A DNA stretch of 20,509 nucleotides from Psammoneis japonica (GCA_008632985.1 QPGO01000114.1:248001-268509), one strand, 5' to 3'. Shown: positions 6,735-19,995, counted from the first letter of the stretch. Notes: a model not told the origin generated them from the letters alone. Numbers and translations: made by a program.

Positions 6735-7152
6735 ACGCGCGTAGATCGTCCACGAAAGCTCTGTCACGATGTGCTGTACCTGAGAGAATTTTTGTGGGGC
6801 GAAAAACGATTCGCTCGCCAAAAACACACACAACAACACGATACATCAACAGCACTTCAGACAGCTCTCTTCGGAAAGCAGAGCAGTAACACCTCGACCC
6901 AATACTTCCTTTTTCATTTACATTGTCTTCTTCATTTATGATGGTAAGTAAAGTTCAGTAGCACTGTGGGTAATGGAGAAAATGTACAATTTAGACTTAC
7001 AGCCTCAGTGTTTTTTCCTTTGCGTTTGCCGTCAGGTGTTTCGGCATTGGCGTCTCTCCGGATGCAATTTCCCCGGTAATTATGCGTTCTCAGCATCAGA
7101 CATGTCCTACATGACAACATATCAAAAGGGTCCGGCAGTATCATAACTGTGA

Positions 7153-8316
7153 GTTGATCGCTCCGAATAGGTTTGGTTGCATGTCTAATTTTGGTGATAC
7201 AAAACGGTACGCAATTTTCACGAGCTTGTATTTTTCCTGTTTTTACAGTTTGTGGTTGGGATAGATATCAAAGCAATACTCTCATCTAATCTATTATCTG
7301 TTTATTGTGCCATTACCACAGGAAGTATCTGTTAGTTGATCGCATCTGAATTGGGTTGGCTGCAAGTATTGTTTTGGCGAAGCAAGATAATGGTACGCAG
7401 TTTTTATGCGCTCGTATTAGCTGCTACATGGTTCACGGCTTGGATTGCTACATATCGAACATATACTCTCACGGACTCTATTGTCTATATCTTGTGCCAA
7501 TGTCACAGGAGATATAAATCAATTCGTATCCAATCTGAATTGATTTGCTTGCATCTATTTTTTGGAGAATCAAAACGGTACGCATTTCTTATGAACACGT
7601 ATTCTCCGCATTGTGCAGTTTATGGTTTGGATAGCTACATATCGAATAAACACTCTCATGGACTCTTTTGTCTATTTCTTGTGCCAATGCCACAGGAATT
7701 GTCAATGGACTTAGTTGACGCTTCACGGGCTGTCGTGCATGCATGCGTGATAAAGCACATCGGGGTCCACAGTTTTGTACAGTCATTACGGATGAGCTGG
7801 GTATGAACAGAAAGGCAAGATTCAACTGTGCACCATTGTCTATTACTCTCCTTCATCTATTGTTTTGGTGGTTCAAAGCGGTACGCATTCCTTATGAGCT
7901 AGTATGTTCCGCTTTGTAAGTTTGGTTTCTATGACTGCATATCAAAGCAATGCTCTCATGGACTGTGTTGTCTGTTTCTTGTACCATTACCACAGGAACT
8001 ATCTGTTTCTCGTAACATCACCACAGGAACTGTCTGTCAGTTTATCAAATCCGAATTGATTTGGATGCATCTATTGTTTGGGAGATTTAAGACGGTACAA
8101 TTTATCATACACCCACGTTCTCCGCTTTGTGCAGTTTATGGCTTGGACAGCAACATGTCGAAGAAATATTCTCACGAACTCCATTGTCTACTGCTTGTGC
8201 CTTGGCCATGGGAATGTCAAAAATCCTTTTAGCTTGATGGGCTGTTGTGCGTGCATGCGTGGTGTTGCGTCGGTGTCCGCAGCTTTGTATCAACATTATG
8301 GATGAGCTAGGTATGG
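7153..8316. repeat. Five diverged ~185-bp tandem units plus a twice-repeated ~80-bp spacer
   Basis: Anchor (C/T)GGTAC(G/A) at 7205, 7391, 7576, 7879 and 8093; shared ..TCTCAYGGACT..TTGTCT..TGTGCC...CACAGGA; spacer GGGCTGT...GGATGAGCT.GGTATG at ~7727-7805 and ~8240-8316. Confidence 0.88.
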
Positions 8317-8369
8317 CAATGTGTTGATAGCCAGATCTTGAAGCAATGTTACCAATAAGGAATGCAGTC

Positions 8370-8842
8370 AAATCTATGAACTGTCGGTCCCTTCCATTGT
8401 CTGATGTAGTACAAGGATCAGCTTAGATCCTATCTAGATCTCCCCTTTCGATGGGCGGAACTCGGAACAGTCTACCGGTAGGTTCAGTTCTCATGTTGTG
8501 CTTTCGTGTTGAATGTTCTACTTCTCTGGAATTAACGCTTACCTCGCAAACTCTGGCTGTTCTGTGTGCAAGAAGCAAGAGGTCGGGTGCCTTGCATGTG
8601 CTGATGCGCGTCCGTGGTTTTACACAAGACGAGCTAGAGTACAAGACAAGATTGTTCAAGAACTAGACTTGACCGTAACGATTCTTTCTTGCTTTGGTTT
8701 TGATGAGTATGACATTGTGCTTTCAATGTGACCAGAACAGCAACGCATTCCAATCACGGCTGTCGTAGGTGTGAAAATAGTGGAGTCCGGCAAGCTCACG
8801 GTTCGTAGCCGTAAAGAAGGCGACCTTGCTTTATTCAGCATC
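8370..8842 (+). pseudogene. thrS: Threonyl-tRNA synthetase (bacterial/organellar type) fragment, frameshifted and internally deleted
   Basis: K.MNC..FHCLM.YKDQLRSYLDLPFRWAELGTVYR; intron-like GTAGG...AG at ~8478-8572; RSGALHVLMRVRGFTQDE; LDLTVTILSCFGFDEYDIVLSM*PE joined directly to anticodon-domain QRIPITAVVGVKIVESGKLTVRSRKEGDL. Confidence 0.9.
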
Positions 8843-9803
8843 TATGCTTGTGATTACCTTTAGCAATGGCTTGATAGTCAGAATCCCAGAAGTAACCCAG
8901 TTTTGAGTAATGGCATTGTTGGGTTTCCCTTTTCTCAAACGCAAAACAATAGGCCGGGCACATAGATGCGGCAGAGTCGTCAAGCTTTCTTATTTTATTG
9001 CAACAGAGTCTATTCTACTAGAAATCTGTTTCTTCTAGGCTCTCAAGGCTAGAAGTAGAAGTGGGAATGGAGATCACAGTTTCATTGAAATGCTCCTAGT
9101 GCCACGTAAAGGATCCAACTCGATATGAGCTCCGTCCTTGGTAGCAGAACGTATGGACTTATAATTCCATTCCTCTCCATCAACTTCAGGTGAAAATGGA
9201 GCCTTGTAATAACCATTTCACCTTTTCCTTTGAAGCCCTGTCCAACCAAGTGAATAAATGATGCTCTCAAAGCAATGGTCGATCCCTTTTTCCAGCATGG
9301 AACTCTGTAATAAGCCAACAGCGGATGCGCAGTCTTGGTGGCGATTCAGCACTGAGCAATCTCTTTGCAATGGCATTCGGAATCACTCCAATGCCATTGG
9401 CACAGATCACATGCCAGCAACTGTGACCTTGGCATGTTGTATTGAGTATATGATGTCAGCACAAGTGATTGTGTTGTCGGTTGTGGCAGAATATGAACGC
9501 AAACTTGTCGGTTGTTGTGCGTTGCGTCGCGGTGAATTTGTAATTATTTCGGGTTTCGCCCCACAAAAATTCTCTCAGGTACAGCACATCGTGACAGGCG
9601 GAAGTACCAGCGTGATCCACCTCATCGTTTTGTCGTTCGCGCGCGCGCTGAGTGTGCGAATGCGCGTGTGCGAACGACAACAGACGATTTATGCACCTCT
9701 GCCCAGCGCAGCATGCACACCGCCGCAGCAATGATCTTGCTGCGCTGTTGCCGCTGTGCTATTGAAGCAAGAAATCCCGTTATTCTTAATCATAGCACTC
9801 ATC

Positions 9804-10331
9804 ATGTCTACTTATATGCTTCATCACAGTGCCAATGAACGCCGCAAAGTCATGCTGGAAAAGCTCGGTGGTCGCAAAGTCTTACACGAGGCGATTGACA
9901 AGTTTTACGACAAGCAAATCCACGATGAAACCTTGATGAAGTACTTTGAAGGCGTCGACGTTCAAATTATTAAATGGCATCAATTCAATCTCATGTCGAT
10001 TGCCTTTACAGAAATTCCAGAAAACTTTGACGTAATGCAATTATTGCTTACGAGGCACAAGCGTCTGTTTGATCTCGGATTGTGTGAACGGCATTTTGAT
10101 TTAGTAGCTGAGCACTTTTCAGATACTTTGCACGAAATGAATGTAGACGAAAAGCTCCAAAAGGAAGCTTTGGAGGTTGTAATGCCACTTCGTGATGTTT
10201 TTGAGCAGGGTGCAAAGGAAGCTCAGGAGCGGAAAAAGGAAGAAGCGTTTCGGCGACAAGTCATTCTGGCGGTTCTGGTGGGCGTGGTGGCTGTGGGTGT
10301 TGTACGGTTTGTTCGATCCAAGAAACATTAG
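9804..10331 (+). CDS. Group I truncated (2/2) hemoglobin with C-terminal transmembrane tail anchor, 175 aa
   Basis: Intact ORF from ATG 9804 to TAG. LEKLGG...AIDKFY (B9-B10 FY), L.KYF.GVD, HQ (E helix), RH.RL (proximal His), GL.ERHFD.VAEH. Then a charged linker, hydrophobic VILAVLVGVVAVGVV and basic RFVRSKKH. Confidence 0.9.
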   Translation: MSTYMLHHSANERRKVMLEKLGGRKVLHEAIDKFYDKQIHDETLMKYFEGVDVQIIKWHQFNLMSIAFTEIPENFDVMQLLLTRHKRLFDLGLCERHFDLVAEHFSDTLHEMNVDEKLQKEALEVVMPLRDVFEQGAKEAQERKKEEAFRRQVILAVLVGVVAVGVVRFVRSKKH

Positions 10332-10708
10332 AATAGAATACCGTCGTCGAGTGATCATGAGGCAGAGAATCTCTGATCAATTTGAAATTTTTGGCGAGTT
10401 CGAGATTGTGGAACGCTCCAGAAAGAATAGATAGGAAACTAATCTAAAGGTAGGAGAGACTTGTTTGAAGCTGATAAATCAACAGGTTTCTCTCAGCTCG
10501 TATCCATGCCAAATACACTCTACACTAGGTGGTCTAATGGGGTATGTTAGTGATAGTACCATAAAAGTGTTCTTCTGTATGTGTTGGAAGGTCAAACATA
10601 GGTATAGGCGGAGATTGAAGGTGGGAAAGGTTGAACCATAAGTCCAAGGACTTTCTCTCTAGAGGAATACAAATAATACCTCTTATTCCAACCGGAGACT
10701 GCAATAAA

Positions 10709-11390
10709 GGCAAACCGGAAGCTCCAAATGATTGTCCGAACACAAACAGACTCGTGATCAACGAGACCATGCTTAACCCGTCAAAGGTCAAGCATGGCAA
10801 AGTAGAATGGTTTAAACGGATGAACTATCAAGGAAGATGAGGTTAATAGTCACGTCATTGAAAACGGCTAGCCTCTCCATATCACCCTTGGCGGACTCCT
10901 TGTGCTCGGAAATAACGGCAACGTCATTGACAGCGACAGTGCCGCTTCATACTGTGACTAGTGCAATCGTTTGCAGCTGAATAACGGTGGTGACGAGCTC
11001 GTTCTCGTAGACAGACAAGATGTCGAGGTTGATCGTGTAGCTTGGCATGTGGGGTCTGATGATTTTCCATACCAGAATGATGCAACCAAGGCAGTCCGAG
11101 ATGCGACTCTTGACAACAGCATTGGTACAAACTGGTACAGCGAAGGAACACCTGGAACGAAATTATGTGTGTCCGAATCCTAACATAAGCGAAGATGGAC
11201 CGGTCTCTTTGAGGACAGTGATCATGTGCAATCGTGCTCAAGTTTCAGACACGTTGGGTGAATGGGTGGGGCTCTTCAATCCGGCGCGTCGTGGGCTTTA
11301 CGCATTGACGGAAAGAGCTGGTGTGTGGAGCCACTCCGTATGGTGGTGGTGATTTAGGCGCTCCGGGAGCCAAGAATGACTGCCCTCCCG
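10709..11390 (+). pseudogene. Tandem lamin-tail-domain (LTD) protein remnant
   Basis: GKPEAPNDC; LVINETMLNPSKV..GKVEWF..MN; SHVIENG*PLHITLGGLLVLGNN; LNNGGDELVLVD...VDRVAW; EGTPG; second copy IMCN.AQVSDTLGEWVGLFNP...PYGGGDLGAPGAKNDC. Stops and frameshifts present. Confidence 0.75.
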
Positions 11391-11529
11391 GTCGCTGAAT
11401 GGAACAGGAGAAAAGAGGTAACATCAGAGGCTCTAGGTGATAGCGTCGCTTGTGCTGTAGTAGCAGGAATAAAGGTAAGCACGTGTTAATAAAGATCTTC
11501 AACTCCCATCCTTACCTAAATGATATTGT

Positions 11530-13110
11530 CTAGGATTGGAGGAGCCAACTATCAATCAACTTTCGTGCCAGTACCCCATGTGGTGGAATCAACAACGGCA
11601 ACGTTGGATCATTTTCCATTGCTTTCTTTGCCACTTCGTGTAACATAACCGCTCCAGGACCGATCGATGCCTTGACCACATCGTCAAAATCAAACCAAGC
11701 AAATTCTACCAATTCTTCCTCGTCCATGTTAGTCTCTTGATTCTCATCCACCGTGGCGTGAAAATCAATCATGCAGGAACGGGGAAAAGGCCACGGTTGA
11801 GATCCGATGTACGACACAGAGTCCGTATCAATGCACACGCCGGTTTCCTCAAACACTTCACGACGAATCGCTTGTTCAAACGTTTCTCCGGCTTCGACAA
11901 AACCAGCCAGAGCCGTGTGCATTTTGGGTGGATGGCGTGGTGTCTCGCTAGTAGGGCACGATTCTTGAGTCGATTGGTGACTAGAACAATAATGCTGGGA
12001 TCCTGACGAGGCCAACTCATGACACCGCAGCCCGTACACCTTTGGCATGATCCGCCTTGAAATGTGATGAGCGATGAACCACAACTGGAACAGCGCTTGT
12101 GTGTCTTTTTCCATTGTGACAAGGCGGTTGCATACAACGCAAGCTCGTTGTGTTTCTCGTTCAGGAGCGGTGCTTGTGTTCAAGAGTACGCAAAGCTTCC
12201 TGCTACGTCAAACGATGAATCATCTTGATCATCATCCAGGTCAATACTAAAGACTGCGGAGCCATCGGAAGCGAGTCCAAGAAATGTCTTTTCGCTATTG
12301 TCTGGTACACTTGAAGACCAACAAGAGCTAATTCAGTAGGCGATGCAAACAAGCATTCTCGACCACGGACAATAACATGCTTGGAATCTGCTTGCTCCTC
12401 GAGGTTTTGGATAGCTTCTTCATCTCGTCGAAGATGCGTTGCCCGATCCAGACGCGTACATGACGCAATCATTTCATTGCTTTCACCCACAGCATCACGT
12501 AGAATTCCACTTGCATCGAACGCCAAATTGGCAGCAGCGTCCGGTTACAATCGCATGTTCCCCTGACGATTTGCATGGGTCGGGTGCACCACCGTCTGCG
12601 CCAAACAACCGGACTGACGAGTCGTCGTCTCGCCCAGCAATGGCAATAGCCGCAAAACCCTTGTTGTGTCCTTTGGGTCTAAAGGTGGGACTGGCGGCAC
12701 TTCCTTCGGCAATGGCATAATCGACATTCATTTGTTTACAAAGCGCAAGCCCCGCTTCTGCAGTCCAGTGGAGTTTTGATCGGATGTACCCGTCCGCTTC
12801 AGTTTCATCAGGCATGGCATCGTTCTTGAAACTGACGAGTTTCGAATGAAGAACTTTATCACTTTTTAGAGCAGCGGCAAGGCCTTCCGGGTGTTGTAAG
12901 CGACAGAGCCTCCATAAAATACAGCGGAAGAACATGATGGAGGAAGAAAGGACTCCACCCGCGGAACATTCCACAGTAGTCACGGTCTTTTTCAACTTCT
13001 TGAGACCATTGACCAGTCTCGTGAACGATGGTGAGCGGAAGCTGTGATTGATCACCTTGAGACGACGCAGTATGGAGAAGCAAATGATTTCTAAAAGCCT
13101 GCATTGACAT
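11530..13110 (-). pseudogene. nudC: CinA/PncC-like (NMN deamidase fold) plus NudC-type NADH pyrophosphatase fusion, multiply frameshifted
   Basis: 5' part: VTTVECSAGG, SSAVFYGGSVAYNTRKA, DYAIAEGSAASPTF.P.G..KGFAAIAIAG (CinA C-terminal fold). Then LDRATHLRRDE, zinc ribbon CSSCG...CTGCG..WPRQDPSIIVLV, Nudix box AGFVEAGETFEQAIRREVFEETGV and NudC signature SQPWPFP. Motifs are spread over several frames. Confidence 0.85.
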
Positions 13111-13282: not shown

Positions 13283-13698
13283 GCACCCCTGTGGTAGGGG
13301 AGAATATGGTGATGTCATGGTTACGTGGCAGTTTATATCTTATTCATTATATTTTTATATAAATGTCCTCACATTTATTTATGCATTTGTACACAAATGC
13401 CAATAGTAACAGGAAAAATCCTGAACACTCCACGCACACCCCTGTGGTAGGGGAGCTGTGTGTGTGTGCGTGGTTGTGCGCGCACGGCTTCGCCGTGCGT
13501 TGAGTTTCAATCTTAATATCCACACGAATGTGTATATTCCATAAGTAAAAATTTATTCAGGATTTTTCCTGTTACTATTGGCATTTGTGTACAAATGCAT
13601 AAATAAATGTGAGGACATTTATATAAAAATATAATGAATAAGATATAAACTGCCACGTAACCATGACATCACCATATTCTCCCCTACCACAGGGGTGC
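13283..13698. mobile_element. Foldback/MITE-like element: 143-bp perfect inverted arms around a 130-bp spacer
   Basis: 13283-13425 is the reverse complement of 13556-13698. The spacer holds a direct copy of the terminal CACCCCTGTGGTAGGGGAG (13437-13455), a short TG run and the hairpin GCACGGC-TTC-GCCGTGC. No TSD. Confidence 0.75.
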
Positions 13699-13972
13699 CC
13701 GGGTTCCTTTGGGCGTGCAGAGAAAAGACCCGAGCGAGTGACAGACCATTTTCATCTAAGAAGCGACCTCGCTCAGCGCGGTTCCGTCCGGCCTTCGTAC
13801 GGGACCTTTCGAAAACCACTTGCACAAAACATCACAAAAATCGCACACCATGACGAGTGCCGCCGACGCGTCGTCGTGTAGCGCTATAACTGTTATGATA
13901 ACAACTACCAAACCTTGCACACACGATCTAACAGTATTCAAGTACATGTTCATGTTTTAGATTTGCTGAAAT

Positions 13973-15184
13973 ATGTCGGTTTCATCGATTGCGCCGCGGT
14001 TGAATAGCGACACTCATGGAAGCACACAAAATGCGGCTCCGGAGTATAACATGACCCAGGAGAGGCAAATTATGCTTGTTGATCCCAAAATCAACCTTTC
14101 AATCGTTCGAGTACTTGGTTTGAAATACAATGGATGCGAGATACCACGTCACATTCTCGGTTATGATGCTAATTGGCAAAACGTTTTTCGGAAGGTCCGA
14201 GATTTCGTCAAAATGGATGCCGCTGAGCAGAAGATCGAGAAGAACCGCTGGGGCAAGTTCCCACGATGGGAAAAAGACATATATGAACGAAGGATTCGCG
14301 TATTGAATGAGCAAAAGGCTGCTATTCATGAAAAGTATGCGCAAGTAACCATCGGAACTGCAAAATTACCGCGATCAGTTTCACCCGTGCCAGAACCGGT
14401 CGCGCAACAAGCATCAGTCGCTACAGACAATGATACCGCCGGAGAACAACAGGTAGAGCCACCTAGCAGTGTATCTGACAAAAGACTGACATCAGCCGGT
14501 TTGTCAGAATCGTCAAAGGTTTTTTTTAGAGGCAAGAGCAGAAAGCGTCGAAGCAGAACTCCAGCGTCGGAGTCTGTGGAACAAACAAGCGCCCCCGCCA
14601 ACGACGGTAGATCGAGTTTCAATCTGAAAGCTACATCACTTTTTTCCCCAGTAGAAGAACGTCTGGCTTTGGTAGAAGATGCAGAAAAGGTAAAAAAATC
14701 TCGAAACACTTTGCATCTGATGGGAACGAATGCAGCTTCTCTCAGCCAACAGGCGGACAGAACTGCGATTGATTCGATTCACGCACTGTTGAAGAAAGCG
14801 GGAACTGCTGCTGATACGACACACTATCCAAATCGGCTTGATAATGAACCGTGTGTGCGTGTTGTGTGCTTGGTTTTGAACGGGATTGAACCTTCCGAGA
14901 CGGATGGCGGGCAACGAAATACAATCGACCTTCCTGCCAAAAAGCCGGAGTTGCTGTTGGTCACGCATTCAGGGGACGATATAAAGCCTGTAATGCAAGC
15001 GTTCAAGGCTGTCACTAGGAGTGAAACAAGAAGCAATGATGCTTTTCACTTTTACCCATTAGTTGCTGGCAAGGATGGTTTGGTTTCATCTGCCGTTGAG
15101 AAATACATTGATGCTTTCAAGAAGAGTCGTAGGAAACCATCCAAAAAGCCTCGAGCGTACCCTGAAGTCATCGAAGAATTATGA
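13973..15184 (+). CDS. Element-encoded hypothetical protein, 403 aa
   Basis: Intact ORF with normal amino-acid composition. Helical N-terminal region, S/P/A/E-rich linker with basic NLS-like KSRKRRSR, globular-looking C-terminus. No family recognised. Confidence 0.8.
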   Translation: MSVSSIAPRLNSDTHGSTQNAAPEYNMTQERQIMLVDPKINLSIVRVLGLKYNGCEIPRHILGYDANWQNVFRKVRDFVKMDAAEQKIEKNRWGKFPRWEKDIYERRIRVLNEQKAAIHEKYAQVTIGTAKLPRSVSPVPEPVAQQASVATDNDTAGEQQVEPPSSVSDKRLTSAGLSESSKVFFRGKSRKRRSRTPASESVEQTSAPANDGRSSFNLKATSLFSPVEERLALVEDAEKVKKSRNTLHLMGTNAASLSQQADRTAIDSIHALLKKAGTAADTTHYPNRLDNEPCVRVVCLVLNGIEPSETDGGQRNTIDLPAKKPELLLVTHSGDDIKPVMQAFKAVTRSETRSNDAFHFYPLVAGKDGLVSSAVEKYIDAFKKSRRKPSKKPRAYPEVIEEL

Positions 15185-15260
15185 GCAGTTGTTGGATGGA
15201 CAGCATGTAGTATTTCAATATCTAAAGTACACTACTAGAATGAATCAATATACTACTACT

Positions 15261-15995
15261 TTAGAAAAATTGATAGCCAGGGGATTGGGATTGAGTAAAT
15301 CCCGTCATGTAGGCAAGGTTTGTCAAAGTTGAGCGATTCGATATCTCCAGCGGATCAAATTTTTTTGTCGGGCAAAGGGTGACGAGGATGGAGTGAAACA
15401 CCTTGAAGATTTTCTCAATCGATGCTTTCATTTCGCTCGTCCAATCTTCCTGCGAGTAAGTGGGAAGAACAGTTGATACAACAGTAATATCGCCATCCTC
15501 TTTGTATTCAGCAAATGTCAATGAGGCGTAATCTTGAATCCTTGATGACGTAACATGGACGTTGCCTCCGAAGAGTTGGTCCGGTGTTTCCTTGTTGCTC
15601 ATGAAATGACGAACCGGATCCATCTTGGCATTCGGAGGAGTGATTGTACCAGTACAGGATTGTTGAATAGGTTTCATACCACCATGTCCTTGCTCAAAAT
15701 GAACAGAATGCATAGTAAAGTCAGTCGTTTCACTGCTGCATACCGAGCAGTACAACGTCGCGTCACAACCTCTCAACGCGACGGAGCGGGCGTAGCAAGA
15801 GACACAAAGAGCACATTTTCCAGCACAACCCAGCTCAATAAAGCTTTCCATACATGTATAGATCTGATTCTCACAAGCTGTACATGACTTAATGGTCGAA
15901 TGAAGCGTATCGAGCTCACAATCGACTGTGACCCTGTTTGACGGAGAAGATTTACCATACACTTTCCGACGCCTTTTTTTTAATGGTTGTGACAT
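15261..15995 (-). CDS. Element-encoded protein with NLS and RING-like Cys8 zinc finger, 244 aa (possibly C-terminally truncated)
   Basis: PLKKRRRK, then CTAC-x15-C-x3-C-x2-C-x2-C-x14-CSVC. Confidence 0.75.
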   Translation of the reverse strand: MSQPLKKRRRKVYGKSSPSNRVTVDCELDTLHSTIKSCTACENQIYTCMESFIELGCAGKCALCVSCYARSVALRGCDATLYCSVCSSETTDFTMHSVHFEQGHGGMKPIQQSCTGTITPPNAKMDPVRHFMSNKETPDQLFGGNVHVTSSRIQDYASLTFAEYKEDGDITVVSTVLPTYSQEDWTSEMKASIEKIFKVFHSILVTLCPTKKFDPLEISNRSTLTNLAYMTGFTQSQSPGYQFF

Positions 15996-16500
15996 TTTGT
16001 GACAATACTGAAGCTACCCCAGTGATCCGAGATGAAAGAGTAACCGAGTCTATTAGTGGTATTGGATAATACTAAACGGTTGTTGAGCTACACGACGACG
16101 CGTCGGCGGCACTCGTCATGGTGTGCGATTTTTGTGATGTTTGTGCAAGTGGTTTTCGAAAGGTCCCGTACGAAGGCCGGACGGAACCGCGCTGAGCGAG
16201 GTCGCTTCTTAGATGAATTTTCAAAAACAGTTTTTGGTTTTTGATCGCCATACATCCGGGTTTTTATCGAATATTTGCCACGTGGAAGCAATTGAGACTA
16301 GGCGAAGAGAGATTAGACTATGAGTCTCTATCTCAACGCACCGTGGAACGAAGGCCAGACCTGCATGACATCACGATTGCGTCAATAACCCGGAAAATTC
16401 CTTTCAACCTGCACAGGGTTTTCGATTGTAGGGAATTCCTCATTCGACCCTGAATTTCCTTAGACAAGGAAAGACAAGGAAACCAGACAGGGAAAAATTA

Positions 16501-18342
16501 ATTGTCGTGATTTGCTGCGCAGTCACAACTGACACAATCATTTCATCAAGCGGTCGACTTGCCCAGAGCCTGCAGCTGCCAACACACTTCAACACACCAC
16601 ATTCAACGAGAAAGGCAGATGCCCTTGGGCACCACAGTCTTTGGGACAAAGAGGCAGCATGATGCTCCCATGTTCTCTTCCAGCATGTTTTCTCCAGTCG
16701 AGCCCACAACAAGCTCAAGTTGGGAGAAGAGTCATTCAACAGACGCACTTTTCAATGAGAAGCTTGTCAAGCTTTCTCTGTGGCTGCCTGCATTGTCCAT
16801 CATTGACGATGGCTGTCAGGACCAGCTGTGCTCCGTGCGACAATGGCGCTCGGCTTTCAGGCTTCTTGTTGCTGACAGTCACGCACCAAAAGCATGCGCA
16901 GCACCGCCACTGATGTCACACTCTGTGTGAGATTCCATGTCAGATCTTGGCACAAAGATTTTTGTTTGTCTTCTTTCTTGTCTTGGGCTGGCCACTTCCT
17001 TGCGATCAAAAACCCCAAACCTGCAACACAAGAAGACACAAAAGTGCAAGAAGACAACCAACCATGATGCAGTGCTGATGGGCCGTGCCTCACCCCCTCA
17101 TGAATGGTGCAACAGATGCTTGCATTGAGCTGCACAAGAGTGTGTCTTGCAAATGACTGTGACATCAGAAGGGCAACAACCAAAGTGAAGTGGTCGCAAA
17201 ATCTTCTGGCAAGTCGCTCCAATTGCCAGCGCCGTTGTTGCACCACAGTTGCTGTCAAACTGTTTCTCGTGCTGTTTGTTGCATTGTTTGTTGCCATCTT
17301 GTGGGAATCAATTGTGGATGGAAATTGAGTCAGGGCCTTGAAATGGCCCTTGCTGCTTGGCTGTTGTTCTTGACAGTCTGGCCAGCAGTCGCCCCACATC
17401 ACAAATTGTTGCGGCAGGGCCCAGCACATCTGTTGCTTGCCTTCATTGCAGCCGTCAATGACCACACAAGAAAAAAGCATGGAATGAACCCAGGTCAGAA
17501 CAGCATGGATTTGAACATTGAATGACCAGGGCAAGCCGCCAGCAAACAAGTTGTGGCCCATCTCGATCTGTTCAGGTCATCCCAGCACTGCAATCTCATC
17601 CATGACTTTCAGCACACTCCACATTTTGTCTGACTCCAGTGCAAACACATCCATTTTGATCACATCAAAACATGATTCAAAAGATGACCCAAACCAAAAT
17701 CTTCCAAGATGTCTGTCAAACACAGAACACAGGCACTCCCTTTGCAAGAGTGTCTGCTCCCGACTTTTGGAGGTTCTCAAATTGCATGAATCATGTGGGC
17801 TTGGACTGTCTTGTCCTCCAACAACAGGCTTTCTGTTGTGACTGAGCTTGGTGTCTCTGAATCTTCTTCCTGGAGTGTGGTCCCTTGCTGCAGACATCCT
17901 CAAGAAAATGCTCAGCATCTGGGGGATCGACTGGTGTGGCCACAACAACTGTGAATGAGTGGGGAGAGACTGCCACCCTTGCAAGGGATCACAGTGTGTC
18001 CAAACTTTTGTGAAGGACAAGGGATGGTGATGGCACCTCGTGCAGCGACAAAGAGTGTGAGACTCGCTTTTGTGGGACAAATGATGGCAACAACAAGAAG
18101 GAAGAGAAATTCCATCCAGTCTTTTTGAGACCAACACTTGCGGGATGATTCTCAAGGGAAACTGGCTTTGCAACAAGCAACATGTCATGTCATGAGGTTT
18201 CGTGCCGGGGGTGGTTTTGATGCCTGACCAGAGAAAGCGCGTGCTGTGGAAACGCCAAGAGCCCAAAAGTTGAAACAGTTTGCAACATGACTCAATCGAC
18301 AGAAGGGCAAGAGTGAACCACAAAGCTGTGGTGGGAGCATTT
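16501..18342. mobile_element. TpA-free decayed repeat or TE relic with a minus-strand ORF remnant (~17250-17800)
   Basis: I found no TA dinucleotide between 16501 and 18342. ORFs 17577-18323 and 16857-17561 share a frame and are separated by one TGA (..KVMDEIAVLG*PEQIEMGHNLFAGGLPWS..). Confidence 0.55.
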
Positions 18343-18600
18343 TACAGCATGATGTCAAGAGCCCGCAAGTCCGCTCAGTTGACAGAGTGGCAAGAACAAA
18401 CTACAAAGCCGTGGCGGGAGCACACCATGGCAACACAAAAAGCCCGAAAATCGAAACAGTTCACAATGCGGCTCAATCGATGGAGCACAGAGTGCAAGAG
18501 CGAAGCATGGTGGGAGCATGTTCTGGTGCCGCCAAGATCCCAAAATCGAGATAGTTCGCAACGTGGCTCATTCGATAGAGCAGCAGGAGCGAACTACAAA
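18254..18600. repeat. Four diverged ~90-bp tandem units
   Basis: Recurring ..CAAGAGCCC.AAA.TYGA.AYAGTT..CAA..GCTCA.TCGA..GCAAGAG.GAA..ACAAAG..GTGGYGGGAGCA. Confidence 0.85.
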
Positions 18601-18771
18601 TGACTTGTCAGTGTCTTTCTTCTTCTTACTAACAAGTTGAACGCACCATGGAGTCTTCGCCAGGTCATTCTCGACCAACACGTTTGGATTTTTTTTGCAA
18701 CAGTACAGTAGGATTATATGTTAAACTTTCTCTAATCTTTTGATCCGTTTCCGTCTTTTCGAGCTTCTTCA

Positions 18772-19191
18772 AAATGCACATTTTGGTAACCTTTCATGTG
18801 TCATCATATAAAATTACAGAACAACACACAAAAGCAAGCACTTAAGCTCTGCCCTTGTTTGTGTCCCAAACTTTGCAAGTCACAATCCTGCAACACTGCC
18901 TGTCATCGGGGCCATCTCGAGCGGCTATCAAGATAGATACCGAGCACGGCGAAAAAAAGGTGGAGTGAGCAAGATGCATATTTTGGTGCACTTTTTATCA
19001 TAACATGTACTTACAGCATAATAATATCATACAAAACAGAAAGCACGACAGCACAGTCCTTCGTTGCCTCCCTGTTGCAATCCCGGAATCCTGCCTATGA
19101 GTGCAGTACTGTAGGGCTATCTCGACCGGCTACAAAGGAGACCGAGCACGGCGAGAAAAAGGCCTCTTGTAAGCAAAATGCACATTTTGGT
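18772..19191. repeat. Diverged ~200-bp tandem duplication
   Basis: AA.ATGCAYATTTTGGT at ~18772, ~18971 and ~19175; GGGCYATCTCGA.CGGCTA...ACCGAGCACGGCGA.AAAAAGG occurs twice. Confidence 0.8.
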
Positions 19192-19995
19192 TAGCTGTAA
19201 ACTACACTATCACTGAACGATACTTACAGGCCCCATATAAACCATGCCACATTTGATTGTTGTGAAATTGTACAGAAACTACAAGGTAATTCACGATGTT
19301 GTCGAAAACGGAAAGCACGAGAAAGACACGACGGTGAGCAATAAGTCGAGTTATATGCATGAGATAACAATCAACACGACTCAACAAACAAACCATATAA
19401 AACATAACATCAGTTTTTGCATTGAGTCATGCTTCTTCATTTCTATCGGTACAAAATCAAAACCATGAAGTAGGCTCTCGTGTAAGTACGAAGTGCGTCT
19501 TGCGTCTTGAGTCGAGCAAAACAGTCCTTACGGTGGCGTTTCTTATTTCGATAGGGTCCACAGCTTGCAAGCGATGTGATAGAAATTATGCCAAAATTCA
19601 GATGCTCGTTCCTGCAAATGTAACAGGCTAAAGAGCTAAGTGTTTGGAAGTTTGAGATAGCGAGAGAAATAGAGACATAACACGCAAAAACGGATTGCAG
19701 CGGCTCACCTTCAATCCATCATCCATCATAAGTCATCCCCTCCCACACTTCATCTTAAAACTCCCACTGCTGTCTCAACACAAACAAACAGCGCGAACAA
19801 AACGCGCAGTTTTTGAAAAGCAGCGACGCCATTTCAAAAACTCTTTTCAAAAACTCTCGCTTTTTTCACCACGACGAAGTGCGGAGAGTCTCGAGGCTCT
19901 TCGCCTCTTGTTATTTCGAGTCTCGCTACGGCACGCGACACGCGACACCGATCTATCGATCAAGTCCCGGCTTGGGAGGTCTGTGATTGGTACGG

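What the first reader, a model, noticed from the sequence alone, without database searches (positions are those of the whole stretch)
13752..16216. Young TIR element with two convergent genes placed symmetrically and no recognisable transposase
Seen: near-identical CpG-rich ~131-bp TIRs, ATTT on both flanks, and two intact ORFs pointing inward whose ATGs (13973 and 15995) are each exactly 221 bp from the nearest end. Both proteins carry NLS-like basic runs. Known: MuDR has convergent genes driven by TIR promoters but 9-bp TSDs, and Sola1 makes 4-bp AWWT TSDs. Inference: an unclassified two-gene DNA transposon or a deletion derivative. It retains TA and CG right beside a TA-free block, so it is either recent or evades the mutator; the ORFs could be anti-silencing accessory factors.
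Basis: partly seen in the sequence, partly recalled or inferred. Interest (0 to 1): 0.72.

Follow-up and report, generated by a model that had tools for sequence, protein, structure and literature searches.

The report
Gutted copy of unclassified two-gene transposon
This is a young, internally deleted copy of a cut-and-paste jumping gene whose full-length form carries a zinc-finger transposase facing a conserved partner gene of unknown function, a layout shared by relatives in environmental samples and apparently forming an unnamed Academ-like lineage.

Summary
The anatomy is confirmed: 131/130-bp TIRs, ATTT on both flanks (true TSD: two paralogous empty sites hold one ATTT), and both ATGs 221 bp from the ends. 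The element is not transposase-free by design. It is a 2,633-bp internal deletion of a 5,098-bp sister copy. ORF2 is the RING-finger N-terminus of a ~1,120-aa transposase fused in frame to its last 14 residues. That transposase has conserved D(N)..D(G)..GxFH..DxxxE residues, a confident RNase H plus helical-insertion model (best match P-element transposase), 444 homologous clusters and weak similarity to DUF6589 (Academ-type by recall). ORF1 is a conserved, selectively constrained partner gene that faces the transposase also in metagenomic relatives; its function is unresolved. The lineage has TCAT ends and 4-bp RNNY TSDs, and lacks the helicase or XPG signatures of described Academ. Sola1, MuDR and RAG-like elements do not fit. 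Mutator evasion is not supported: the sister copy with an intact ORF1 lost 27 of 40 TA in its transposase half. The scan had no look-alike on other DNA, only notes on other Academ-type elements. New variant; interest 0.55.

The parts
13748..13751 (+). Left target-site duplication ATTT
   Evidence: single ATTT at two paralogous empty sites
13752..13882 (+). Left TIR, 131 bp, begins TCATC, CpG-rich
13973..15184 (+). ORF1, 403 aa, intact conserved partner gene of unknown function; helical N-terminal domain (aa ~25-130), disordered linker, alpha/beta C-terminal domain
14708..15142 (+). C-terminal domain of ORF1 (helix-strand-strand-helix-strand-helix in a low-confidence model), the part shared with metagenomic relatives
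15261..15995 (-). ORF2, 244 aa: transposase residues 1-229, one junction codon, and the last 14 native residues; catalytic core deleted
15307..15308 (.). Junction of the 2,633-bp internal deletion relative to the 5,098-bp copy G000:C28:118313-123410
15738..15884 (-). RING-type Cys-rich finger (aa 38-86) at the transposase N-terminus
   Evidence: cysteine columns conserved in homologues; one homologue hits RING_XB3-XBAT31, E 0.0025
16087..16216 (-). Right TIR, 130 bp
16217..16220 (+). Right target-site duplication ATTT
13698..13751 (+). Left piece of the host repeat into which the element inserted; it continues from 16217 to about 19340

Best explanation
The window holds a recent, non-autonomous internal-deletion derivative of a ~5.1-kb two-gene cut-and-paste DNA transposon. 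Shown: the parent encodes, from one end, a ~1,120-aa protein with an N-terminal RING-type finger and an RNase H-fold DDE domain carrying a large helical insertion, and from the other end a ~400-aa partner; ends are TCAT...ATGA; insertion duplicates 4 bp (RNNY). Inferred mechanism: the transposase binds both TIRs, excises the element and attacks the target with a 4-nt stagger. Each TIR end most likely promotes one inward-facing gene. ORF1 most likely acts as a nuclear transposition cofactor that binds DNA or the transposase, as MURB and the Harbinger partner proteins do (inferred by analogy, about 55%). The window copy lost the catalytic core, probably during gap repair, and can move only in trans. 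It keeps its TA because it lies just outside a hypermutated zone. The lineage is most likely a third, undescribed Academ-like branch without helicase or XPG (about 65%).
For: Sister copy is 99.87% identical over 1,556 bp and 96.3% over 909 bp, with 2,633 extra bp between. ORF2 continues into the long frames there and matches the N-terminus of an intact 1,099-aa homologue (E 4e-12). Profile search: 444 clusters at E<=0.001. Among 40 long homologues: D1 38, D2 39, H 40, last E 39. Model pLDDT 88, pTM 0.89; best structural match P-element transposase Z 8.8, rmsd 6.1, 353 aligned, tied within 1 Z with integrases and ISCth4; Hermes, RAG1 and BbRAGL lower. ESM Atlas features: DUF6589 clusters 0.96 (family on 31-49% of members). 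DUF6589 hits below cut-off in 6 of 45 homologues. Exact 4-bp TSD in 10 of 13 two-ended elements of this genome and 2 of 3 two-ended metagenome loci. Empty sites. A profile of ORF1 from this genome alone hits a convergent frame in 7 of 15 metagenome loci (E 1e-8 to 9e-3). ORF1 dN/dS 0.19-0.55 in five pairs.
Against: No intact autonomous copy was seen among the loci fetched; the 5.1-kb sister is frameshifted and TA-edited, so current mobility is not shown. No direct Pfam hit for any transposase piece from this genome; the DUF6589 profile found nothing in the genome (no positive control rang). DUF6589 scores are all under the curated cut-off, and the link DUF6589 = Academ is recalled and echoed by scan notes, not tested against Academ references. 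Structural Z scores do not separate superfamilies. ORF1 function has no direct support: no family, no solved homologue, low-confidence model. The structural model is of subfamily C (about 30% identical to the window's family), not of the window's own transposase.
Confidence: 0.8

Rival explanations
1. Same anatomy, but the lineage is a separate superfamily-level group of insertion-domain DDE transposons, only distantly related to Academ.
For: No helicase or XPG signature; DUF6589 similarity is sub-threshold and confined to the last third of the profile; TCAT ends and an N-terminal RING with a separate convergent gene are not in the Academ passages read; all 444 hits could not be inspected, but none of the 45 scanned passes any transposase family cut-off.
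Against: All ten best Atlas hits with a family share DUF6589 or its clan; 4-bp TSD matches AcademX; element length of about 5-5.6 kb matches the Academ mean of 5,565 bp in bivalves.
Confidence: 0.25
2. ORF1 is an anti-silencing or anti-mutator factor (VANC-like) that shields the element from methylation or TA editing.
For: CpG-rich TIRs kept; basic runs; fast divergence with purifying selection; VANDAL precedent (passage). In the C28 copy the ORF1 half is unedited.
Against: The C28 copy has an intact ORF1, yet 27 of 40 TA in its transposase half were converted; editing fades with distance from a TA-poor flank. Host DNA beside the window copy keeps TA as well. Other family copies are decayed.
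Confidence: 0.15
3. The 244-aa ORF2 product is itself functional, for example a dominant-negative or partner-binding regulator, and the open frame is selected.
For: The deletion is in frame and keeps ATG, NLS-like run, RING and native stop. In MuDR the transposase N-terminus binds MURB (passage).
Against: One in three deletions is in frame by chance. Three sister derivatives (C334, C27, C24) have other breakpoints. This junction was seen in one copy only.
Confidence: 0.07
4. Sola1- or MuDR-type element, or two captured single-copy host genes.
For: The window's own TSD fits AWWT; convergent genes behind long TIRs resemble MuDR.
Against: 3 of 12 TSDs are AWWT and none is 9 bp; no MULE or Sola-type family hit; both ORFs are multi-copy (48 and 26 matches) and lie inside TIR elements.
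Confidence: 0.03

Closest known systems
Academ superfamily (AcademX, AcademH; Kojima 2020, not held; known here from passages of PMC10045372 and PMC10799480) and Pfam DUF6589
   Same: DDE transposase with feature-level and weak HMM similarity to DUF6589; 4-bp TSD as in AcademX; about 5-5.6 kb. The motif order DN / DG / GxFH / DxxxE resembles Academ transposases as recalled, not from a call.
   Different: No helicase and no XPG signature; N-terminal RING-type finger; separate convergent partner gene; TCAT termini; host is neither animal nor fungus by gene content and earlier notes.
P-element transposase (PDB 6p5a), with Hermes, RAG1/BbRAGL and ISCth4
   Same: [quoted passage not shown]
   Different: 7% identity, rmsd 6.1; GxFH in place of C/DxxH; 4-bp TSD; no THAP family hit.
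RAG-like transposons (ProtoRAG; passages of PMC7204232)
   Same: Two convergent genes between TIRs; RING-type finger at the transposase N-terminus.
   Different: RAGL has CAC ends and 5-bp TSDs; ORF1 is not a kelch/PHD protein by model; no RAG1 family hit.
MuDR (mudrA/mudrB; passages of PMC12973397)
   Same: Transposase plus accessory gene; convergent layout behind long TIRs (recalled).
   Different: 4-bp rather than 9-bp TSD; no MULE domain; unrelated partner.
TpA hypermutation of Bigelowiella natans (bioRxiv 10.64898/2026.01.13.699255, abstract read)
   Same: TA to CA/TG changes in the sister copy (27 of 34 differences).
   Different: Here it acts on a DNA transposon, and the window copy itself is unedited.

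Membership tests
DDE cut-and-paste TIR transposons | TIRs, TSD and dispersed copies with different flanks | tested here: met
DDE cut-and-paste TIR transposons | RNase H-fold transposase with conserved D, D, E | tested here: met
   In the parent and relatives; deleted from the window copy
Academ | Transposase homologous to Academ references | tested here: inconclusive
   DUF6589 by Atlas features 0.96 and sub-cut-off HMM hits in 6 of 45 homologues; Repbase Academ sequences not available
Academ (AcademX) | 3- or 4-bp TSD | tested here: met
   12 TSDs of 4 bp; criterion from PMC10045372
Academ (AcademX) | XPG-type nuclease encoded | tested here: not met
   No XPG/PIN Pfam hit in 45 homologues or 15 partner proteins; only three scattered acidic columns at 50% after the last E. 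The C-terminal ~300 aa were not modelled.
Academ (AcademH) | RecQ helicase and 9-10-bp TSD | tested here: not met
   No helicase hit; loose Walker-A-like strings in 4 of 40, no DEAH reported; TSD 4 bp
Academ | Terminal nucleotide signature | not testable with these tools
   Defining paper not held
   3 of 12
Sola1 | Sola-type transposase | not testable with these tools
   No Sola profile on hand
MuDR/MULE | 9-bp TSD and MULE transposase domain | tested here: not met
RAG-like/Transib | CAC termini, 5-bp TSD, RAG2-like partner | tested here: not met
Kolobok | TTAA TSD, RR..YY termini | tested here: not met
   0 of 12 TTAA; termini TC..GA
MADS-box fold (for ORF1 C-terminal domain) | SRF-TF sequence signature or MADS dimer fold | tested here: inconclusive
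   Secondary-structure order fits; no PF00319 hit, no MADS chain listed; model confidence 40-60; dimer prediction not available

The most novel reading that the evidence does not exclude
An undescribed superfamily-level lineage of microbial-eukaryote DNA transposons that has converged on the RAG-transposon layout: a RING-bearing DDE transposase facing an obligatory, possibly MADS-like DNA-binding partner, with TCAT ends and 4-bp RNNY TSDs, and whose derivatives can move as units of 40 kb or more with host genes inside.
Probability: 0.2. Interest if true: 0.78.

Novelty: new variant of a known kind. Interest (0 to 1): 0.55.

Why it matters
The copy itself is a crippled derivative, but it opens up a diverse transposon lineage (444 clusters at 50% identity) that Pfam misses, so repeat annotation of such genomes will leave it unclassified. 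Academ is one of the least characterised superfamilies; a branch that has neither helicase nor XPG, yet makes 4-bp TSDs and keeps a different partner, tests the published idea that those enzymes set TSD length. Two-ended metagenomic relatives with long open frames give material for an assay. The unedited window copy is also a near-perfect 'before' reference for the genome's TA-to-CA/TG mutator acting on its sister copy.

Tried and rejected
Word-indexed protein searches found nothing for the transposase piece or the ORF1 alignment; only the full HMM search did. Metagenome scan with one protein found no relative. Pfam: no hit for the genome's own transposase pieces or ORF2. PDB by sequence: nothing for transposase or ORF1. 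Foldseek gave no E<=0.001 for either model. ORF1 fold: best VIA Z 6.8-7.1 to OsmC/Ohr-like domains, at background level; no MADS chain listed; no Atlas hit. A homodimer prediction for the ORF1 C-terminal domain was not available, so no verdict. PF00319 gave one sub-cut-off match in the genome, PF20231 none. No RNA holder was listed. A 12/23-like length difference between ends was not seen: 131 v 130 bp in subfamily A, 151 v 152 in C. The 221/221 symmetry is not lineage-wide (220/236, 218/236, 244/184); the spacers between TIR and ATG are only weakly alike (23 of 500 shuffles reach the score). One dN/dS row (17 codons, wrong frame) was dropped. Whether C221 is the donor of the giant element's cargo or a third copy was left open. 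Literature searches without a description of this lineage: (Academ + transposon + diatom: 0 papers). The AcademH paper, its supplements and Repbase could not be seen and may describe it.

Full report
Observation. The window is G000:C116:248001-268509 in a 91-Mb eukaryotic assembly; earlier scan notes call it a diatom, which I did not test. The element spans 13752-16216 (2,465 bp). Its TIRs are 131 and 130 bp and differ by one indel. ATTT flanks both ends. Two paralogues of the host repeat (C91, C71) read straight through with a single ATTT where the window has the insertion (2 of the 10 loci were examined, those matching from the first flank base), so the 4-bp TSD is real. Both ORFs, both 221-bp distances, the basic runs and the CpG richness are as described. 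The TA-free block starts about 285 bp beyond the right end, not at it.

The window copy is a deletion derivative. A TIR search gave 26 matches. One pair, C28:118313-123410, bounds a 5,098-bp element with an AATT TSD. The window copy equals its first 909 bp and last 1,556 bp; 2,633 bp are missing at window 15307/15308. In C28, ORF2 runs on through two overlapping frames to the same stop, about 1,120 codons with one frameshift. The window's ORF2 is therefore residues 1-229 of that protein, a junction codon, and its last 14 residues. It looks intact only because the deletion is in frame. Three more near-identical derivatives (C334, C27, C24) have other breakpoints.

The long protein is a DDE transposase. 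Pfam had no hit. A profile from 9 genome pieces found 444 clusters at E<=0.001 among 1.84 billion representatives; the best 150 were listed. In the 40 listed hits of 850 aa or more, the columns D(N), D(G), H of GxFH, and the D and E of DxxxE are held by 38, 39, 40, 39 and 39 sequences; median spacings are 232, 32 (D2-H) and 219 (D2-E) residues. A model of the subfamily C core (684 aa, 103 sequences) has pLDDT 88.3 and pTM 0.89. The first two Asp end beta-strands and the Glu sits in a helix after a long helical insertion. The wide structure search ranks P-element transposase first (Z 8.8, rmsd 6.1, 353 aligned), tied within 1 Z with integrases and ISCth4, with Hermes, RAG1 and BbRAGL lower; Foldseek alone gave no significant match. 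The N-terminus carries a RING-type finger: seven Cys columns held by 23-31 of the 28-31 sequences with residues there, plus one Cys/His column; a strict pattern matched 14 of 40 homologues and both local proteins.

Nearest family. ESM Atlas features place the core with DUF6589 clusters (0.96; family on 31-49% of members), and 6 of 45 homologues hit DUF6589 below its cut-off (E 1e-4 to 8e-3). That DUF6589 is the Academ-type transposase is recalled and echoed by scan notes, not tested. PMC10045372 (passages) states that AcademX makes 3-4-bp TSDs and AcademH 9-10-bp TSDs, and links this to a nuclease or a helicase. This lineage has 4-bp TSDs but shows neither enzyme (the last 300 aa were not modelled). 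The defining paper was not held. So it works like Academ; membership is inconclusive, and it is neither AcademX nor AcademH as defined.

A lineage, not a one-off. The genome holds at least four subfamilies with different TIRs, all starting TCAT. Exact 4-bp TSDs flank 9 of 10 two-ended elements and 1 of 3 oversized ones; three copies with a clipped end could not be scored. Of 15 metagenome loci, 3 show both TIRs, all with TCAT ends, and 2 of these have a 4-bp TSD. All 12 TSDs fit RNNY; 3 fit AWWT. Homologues include marine eukaryote transcripts (MMETSP, one cluster of 10); no named host was returned.

ORF1 is a real partner gene. It has 48 matches in the genome and faces the transposase in subfamilies A, B and C. 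A profile from this genome's copies alone hits a convergent frame in 7 of 15 metagenome loci. A profile that includes eight of the metagenome sequences hits 11 of 15, partly by construction. The other 4 contigs end within 370 bp of the transposase match. Profile-profile comparison of local and metagenome C-terminal domains gives 96.6% probability (the two sets came from one alignment). dN/dS for ORF1 is 0.25, 0.55, 0.23, 0.50 and 0.19 in five pairs, against 0.13-0.34 for four transposase pairs (simple NG86; TA editing adds noise). No family or solved relative was found. The model is weak overall (pLDDT 55) with a confident helical domain at aa 25-120 and a low-confidence helix-strand-strand-helix-strand-helix domain at 263-386. 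That order is the MADS/MEF2 order (recalled), and two scan notes report MADS-like partners of Academ-like elements, but my tests were inconclusive. By analogy with MURB, which binds the MURA N-terminus (passages of PMC12973397), a transposition cofactor is the most likely role; this step is inference.

Symmetry. The 221/221 spacing recurs in subfamily B (C42 221/221, C6 221/219, C193 221/232) but not in C (220/236, 218/236) or L182 (244/184). It fits promoters tied to each end, inherited in A and B; transcription starts were not testable.

Age and the mutator. TIR identity and 2 differences in 1,556 bp against C28 show a young family. In the 909-bp transposase half, 27 of 34 differences are TA in the window against CA or TG in C28; TA falls from 40 to 13. 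Editing in C28 fades inward from a TA-poor flank and spares the ORF1 half. This is the signature reported for Bigelowiella (abstract of bioRxiv 10.64898/2026.01.13.699255) and noted many times in this genome. The family is thus not immune, even with an intact ORF1 in cis, and the window copy's TA is best explained by position.

Papers seen: passages of PMC10045372, PMC10799480, PMC4455052, PMC9587614, PMC7204232, PMC12973397, PMC4746887, PMC5751038, PMC10294476 and bioRxiv 10.1101/2021.09.26.461848; abstract and outline of the Bigelowiella preprint; search listings only for the rest. No description of this lineage turned up, but Repbase and the AcademH paper with its supplements could not be seen.

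Verdict. Real, young, non-autonomous derivative (about 95%) of a two-gene DDE transposon lineage that is most likely an undescribed Academ-like branch (about 65%) or a separate group (about 25%). New variant of a known kind; interest 0.55.

Noticed in passing
G000:C15:348678-389573 (L138, L162-L164, L036) and C54:108764-169243 (L035, L165-L169, L139): Giant subfamily B derivatives: 40.9 kb with an AATT TSD, and 60.5 kb without a clear TSD. They share about 40 kb at 96-99% identity ending exactly at the TIRs, with different flanks. Cargo includes an SF1 helicase with R3H domain, a 585-aa unknown ORF and nested retroelement-like DNA. This suggests that a 40-kb unit moved.
   Followed up: partly
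G000:C221:55925-64180 (L193, L203) and C28:363620-379584 (L045, L140): C221 holds a third copy of the cargo genes with no TIR within 1.5 kb (donor or interrupted copy). C28 holds a 16-kb version with only 326 bp of the cargo.
   Followed up: partly
L027:1814-6911 (G000:C28:118313-123410): Gradient of TA editing inside one element: TA o/e about 0.1 over the first 1.5 kb after the TIR, rising to 0.5-0.8 by 2.7-3.6 kb; the window copy is the unedited reference.
   Followed up: partly
window 13283-13698: 416-bp element with perfect 143-bp inverted arms (CACCCCTGTGG ends) and a third 19-bp end motif at 13437-13455; it abuts the end of the host repeat; no obvious TSD.
   Followed up: no
window 13698-13751 and 16217-19340: The host repeat is itself multi-copy; its first 340 bp keep TA while 16503-18400 are TA-free. 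No family hit for its two long frames.
   Followed up: partly
window 6761-9597: 49-bp inverted repeats (CTGTCACGA ends) around an array of about 187-bp degenerate repeats at 7155-8215.
   Followed up: no
window 9804-12935: Host genes in the TA-retaining zone: truncated globin (9804-10331) and a NUDIX hydrolase (11530-12114, minus strand).
   Followed up: no
L175:11211-11981: The 7.0-kb metagenomic relative carries a third open frame of 257 aa upstream of its ORF1 homologue.
   Followed up: no
L147:2005-7085 (G000:C75): Divergent subfamily D: TCAT ends, GATT TSD, transposase found only by profile; its convergent frame is acidic and did not hit the ORF1 profiles.
   Followed up: partly
G000:C357 (several places): Six or more short matches to the same transposase segment on one small contig, suggesting a tandem array derived from the transposase.
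   Followed up: no
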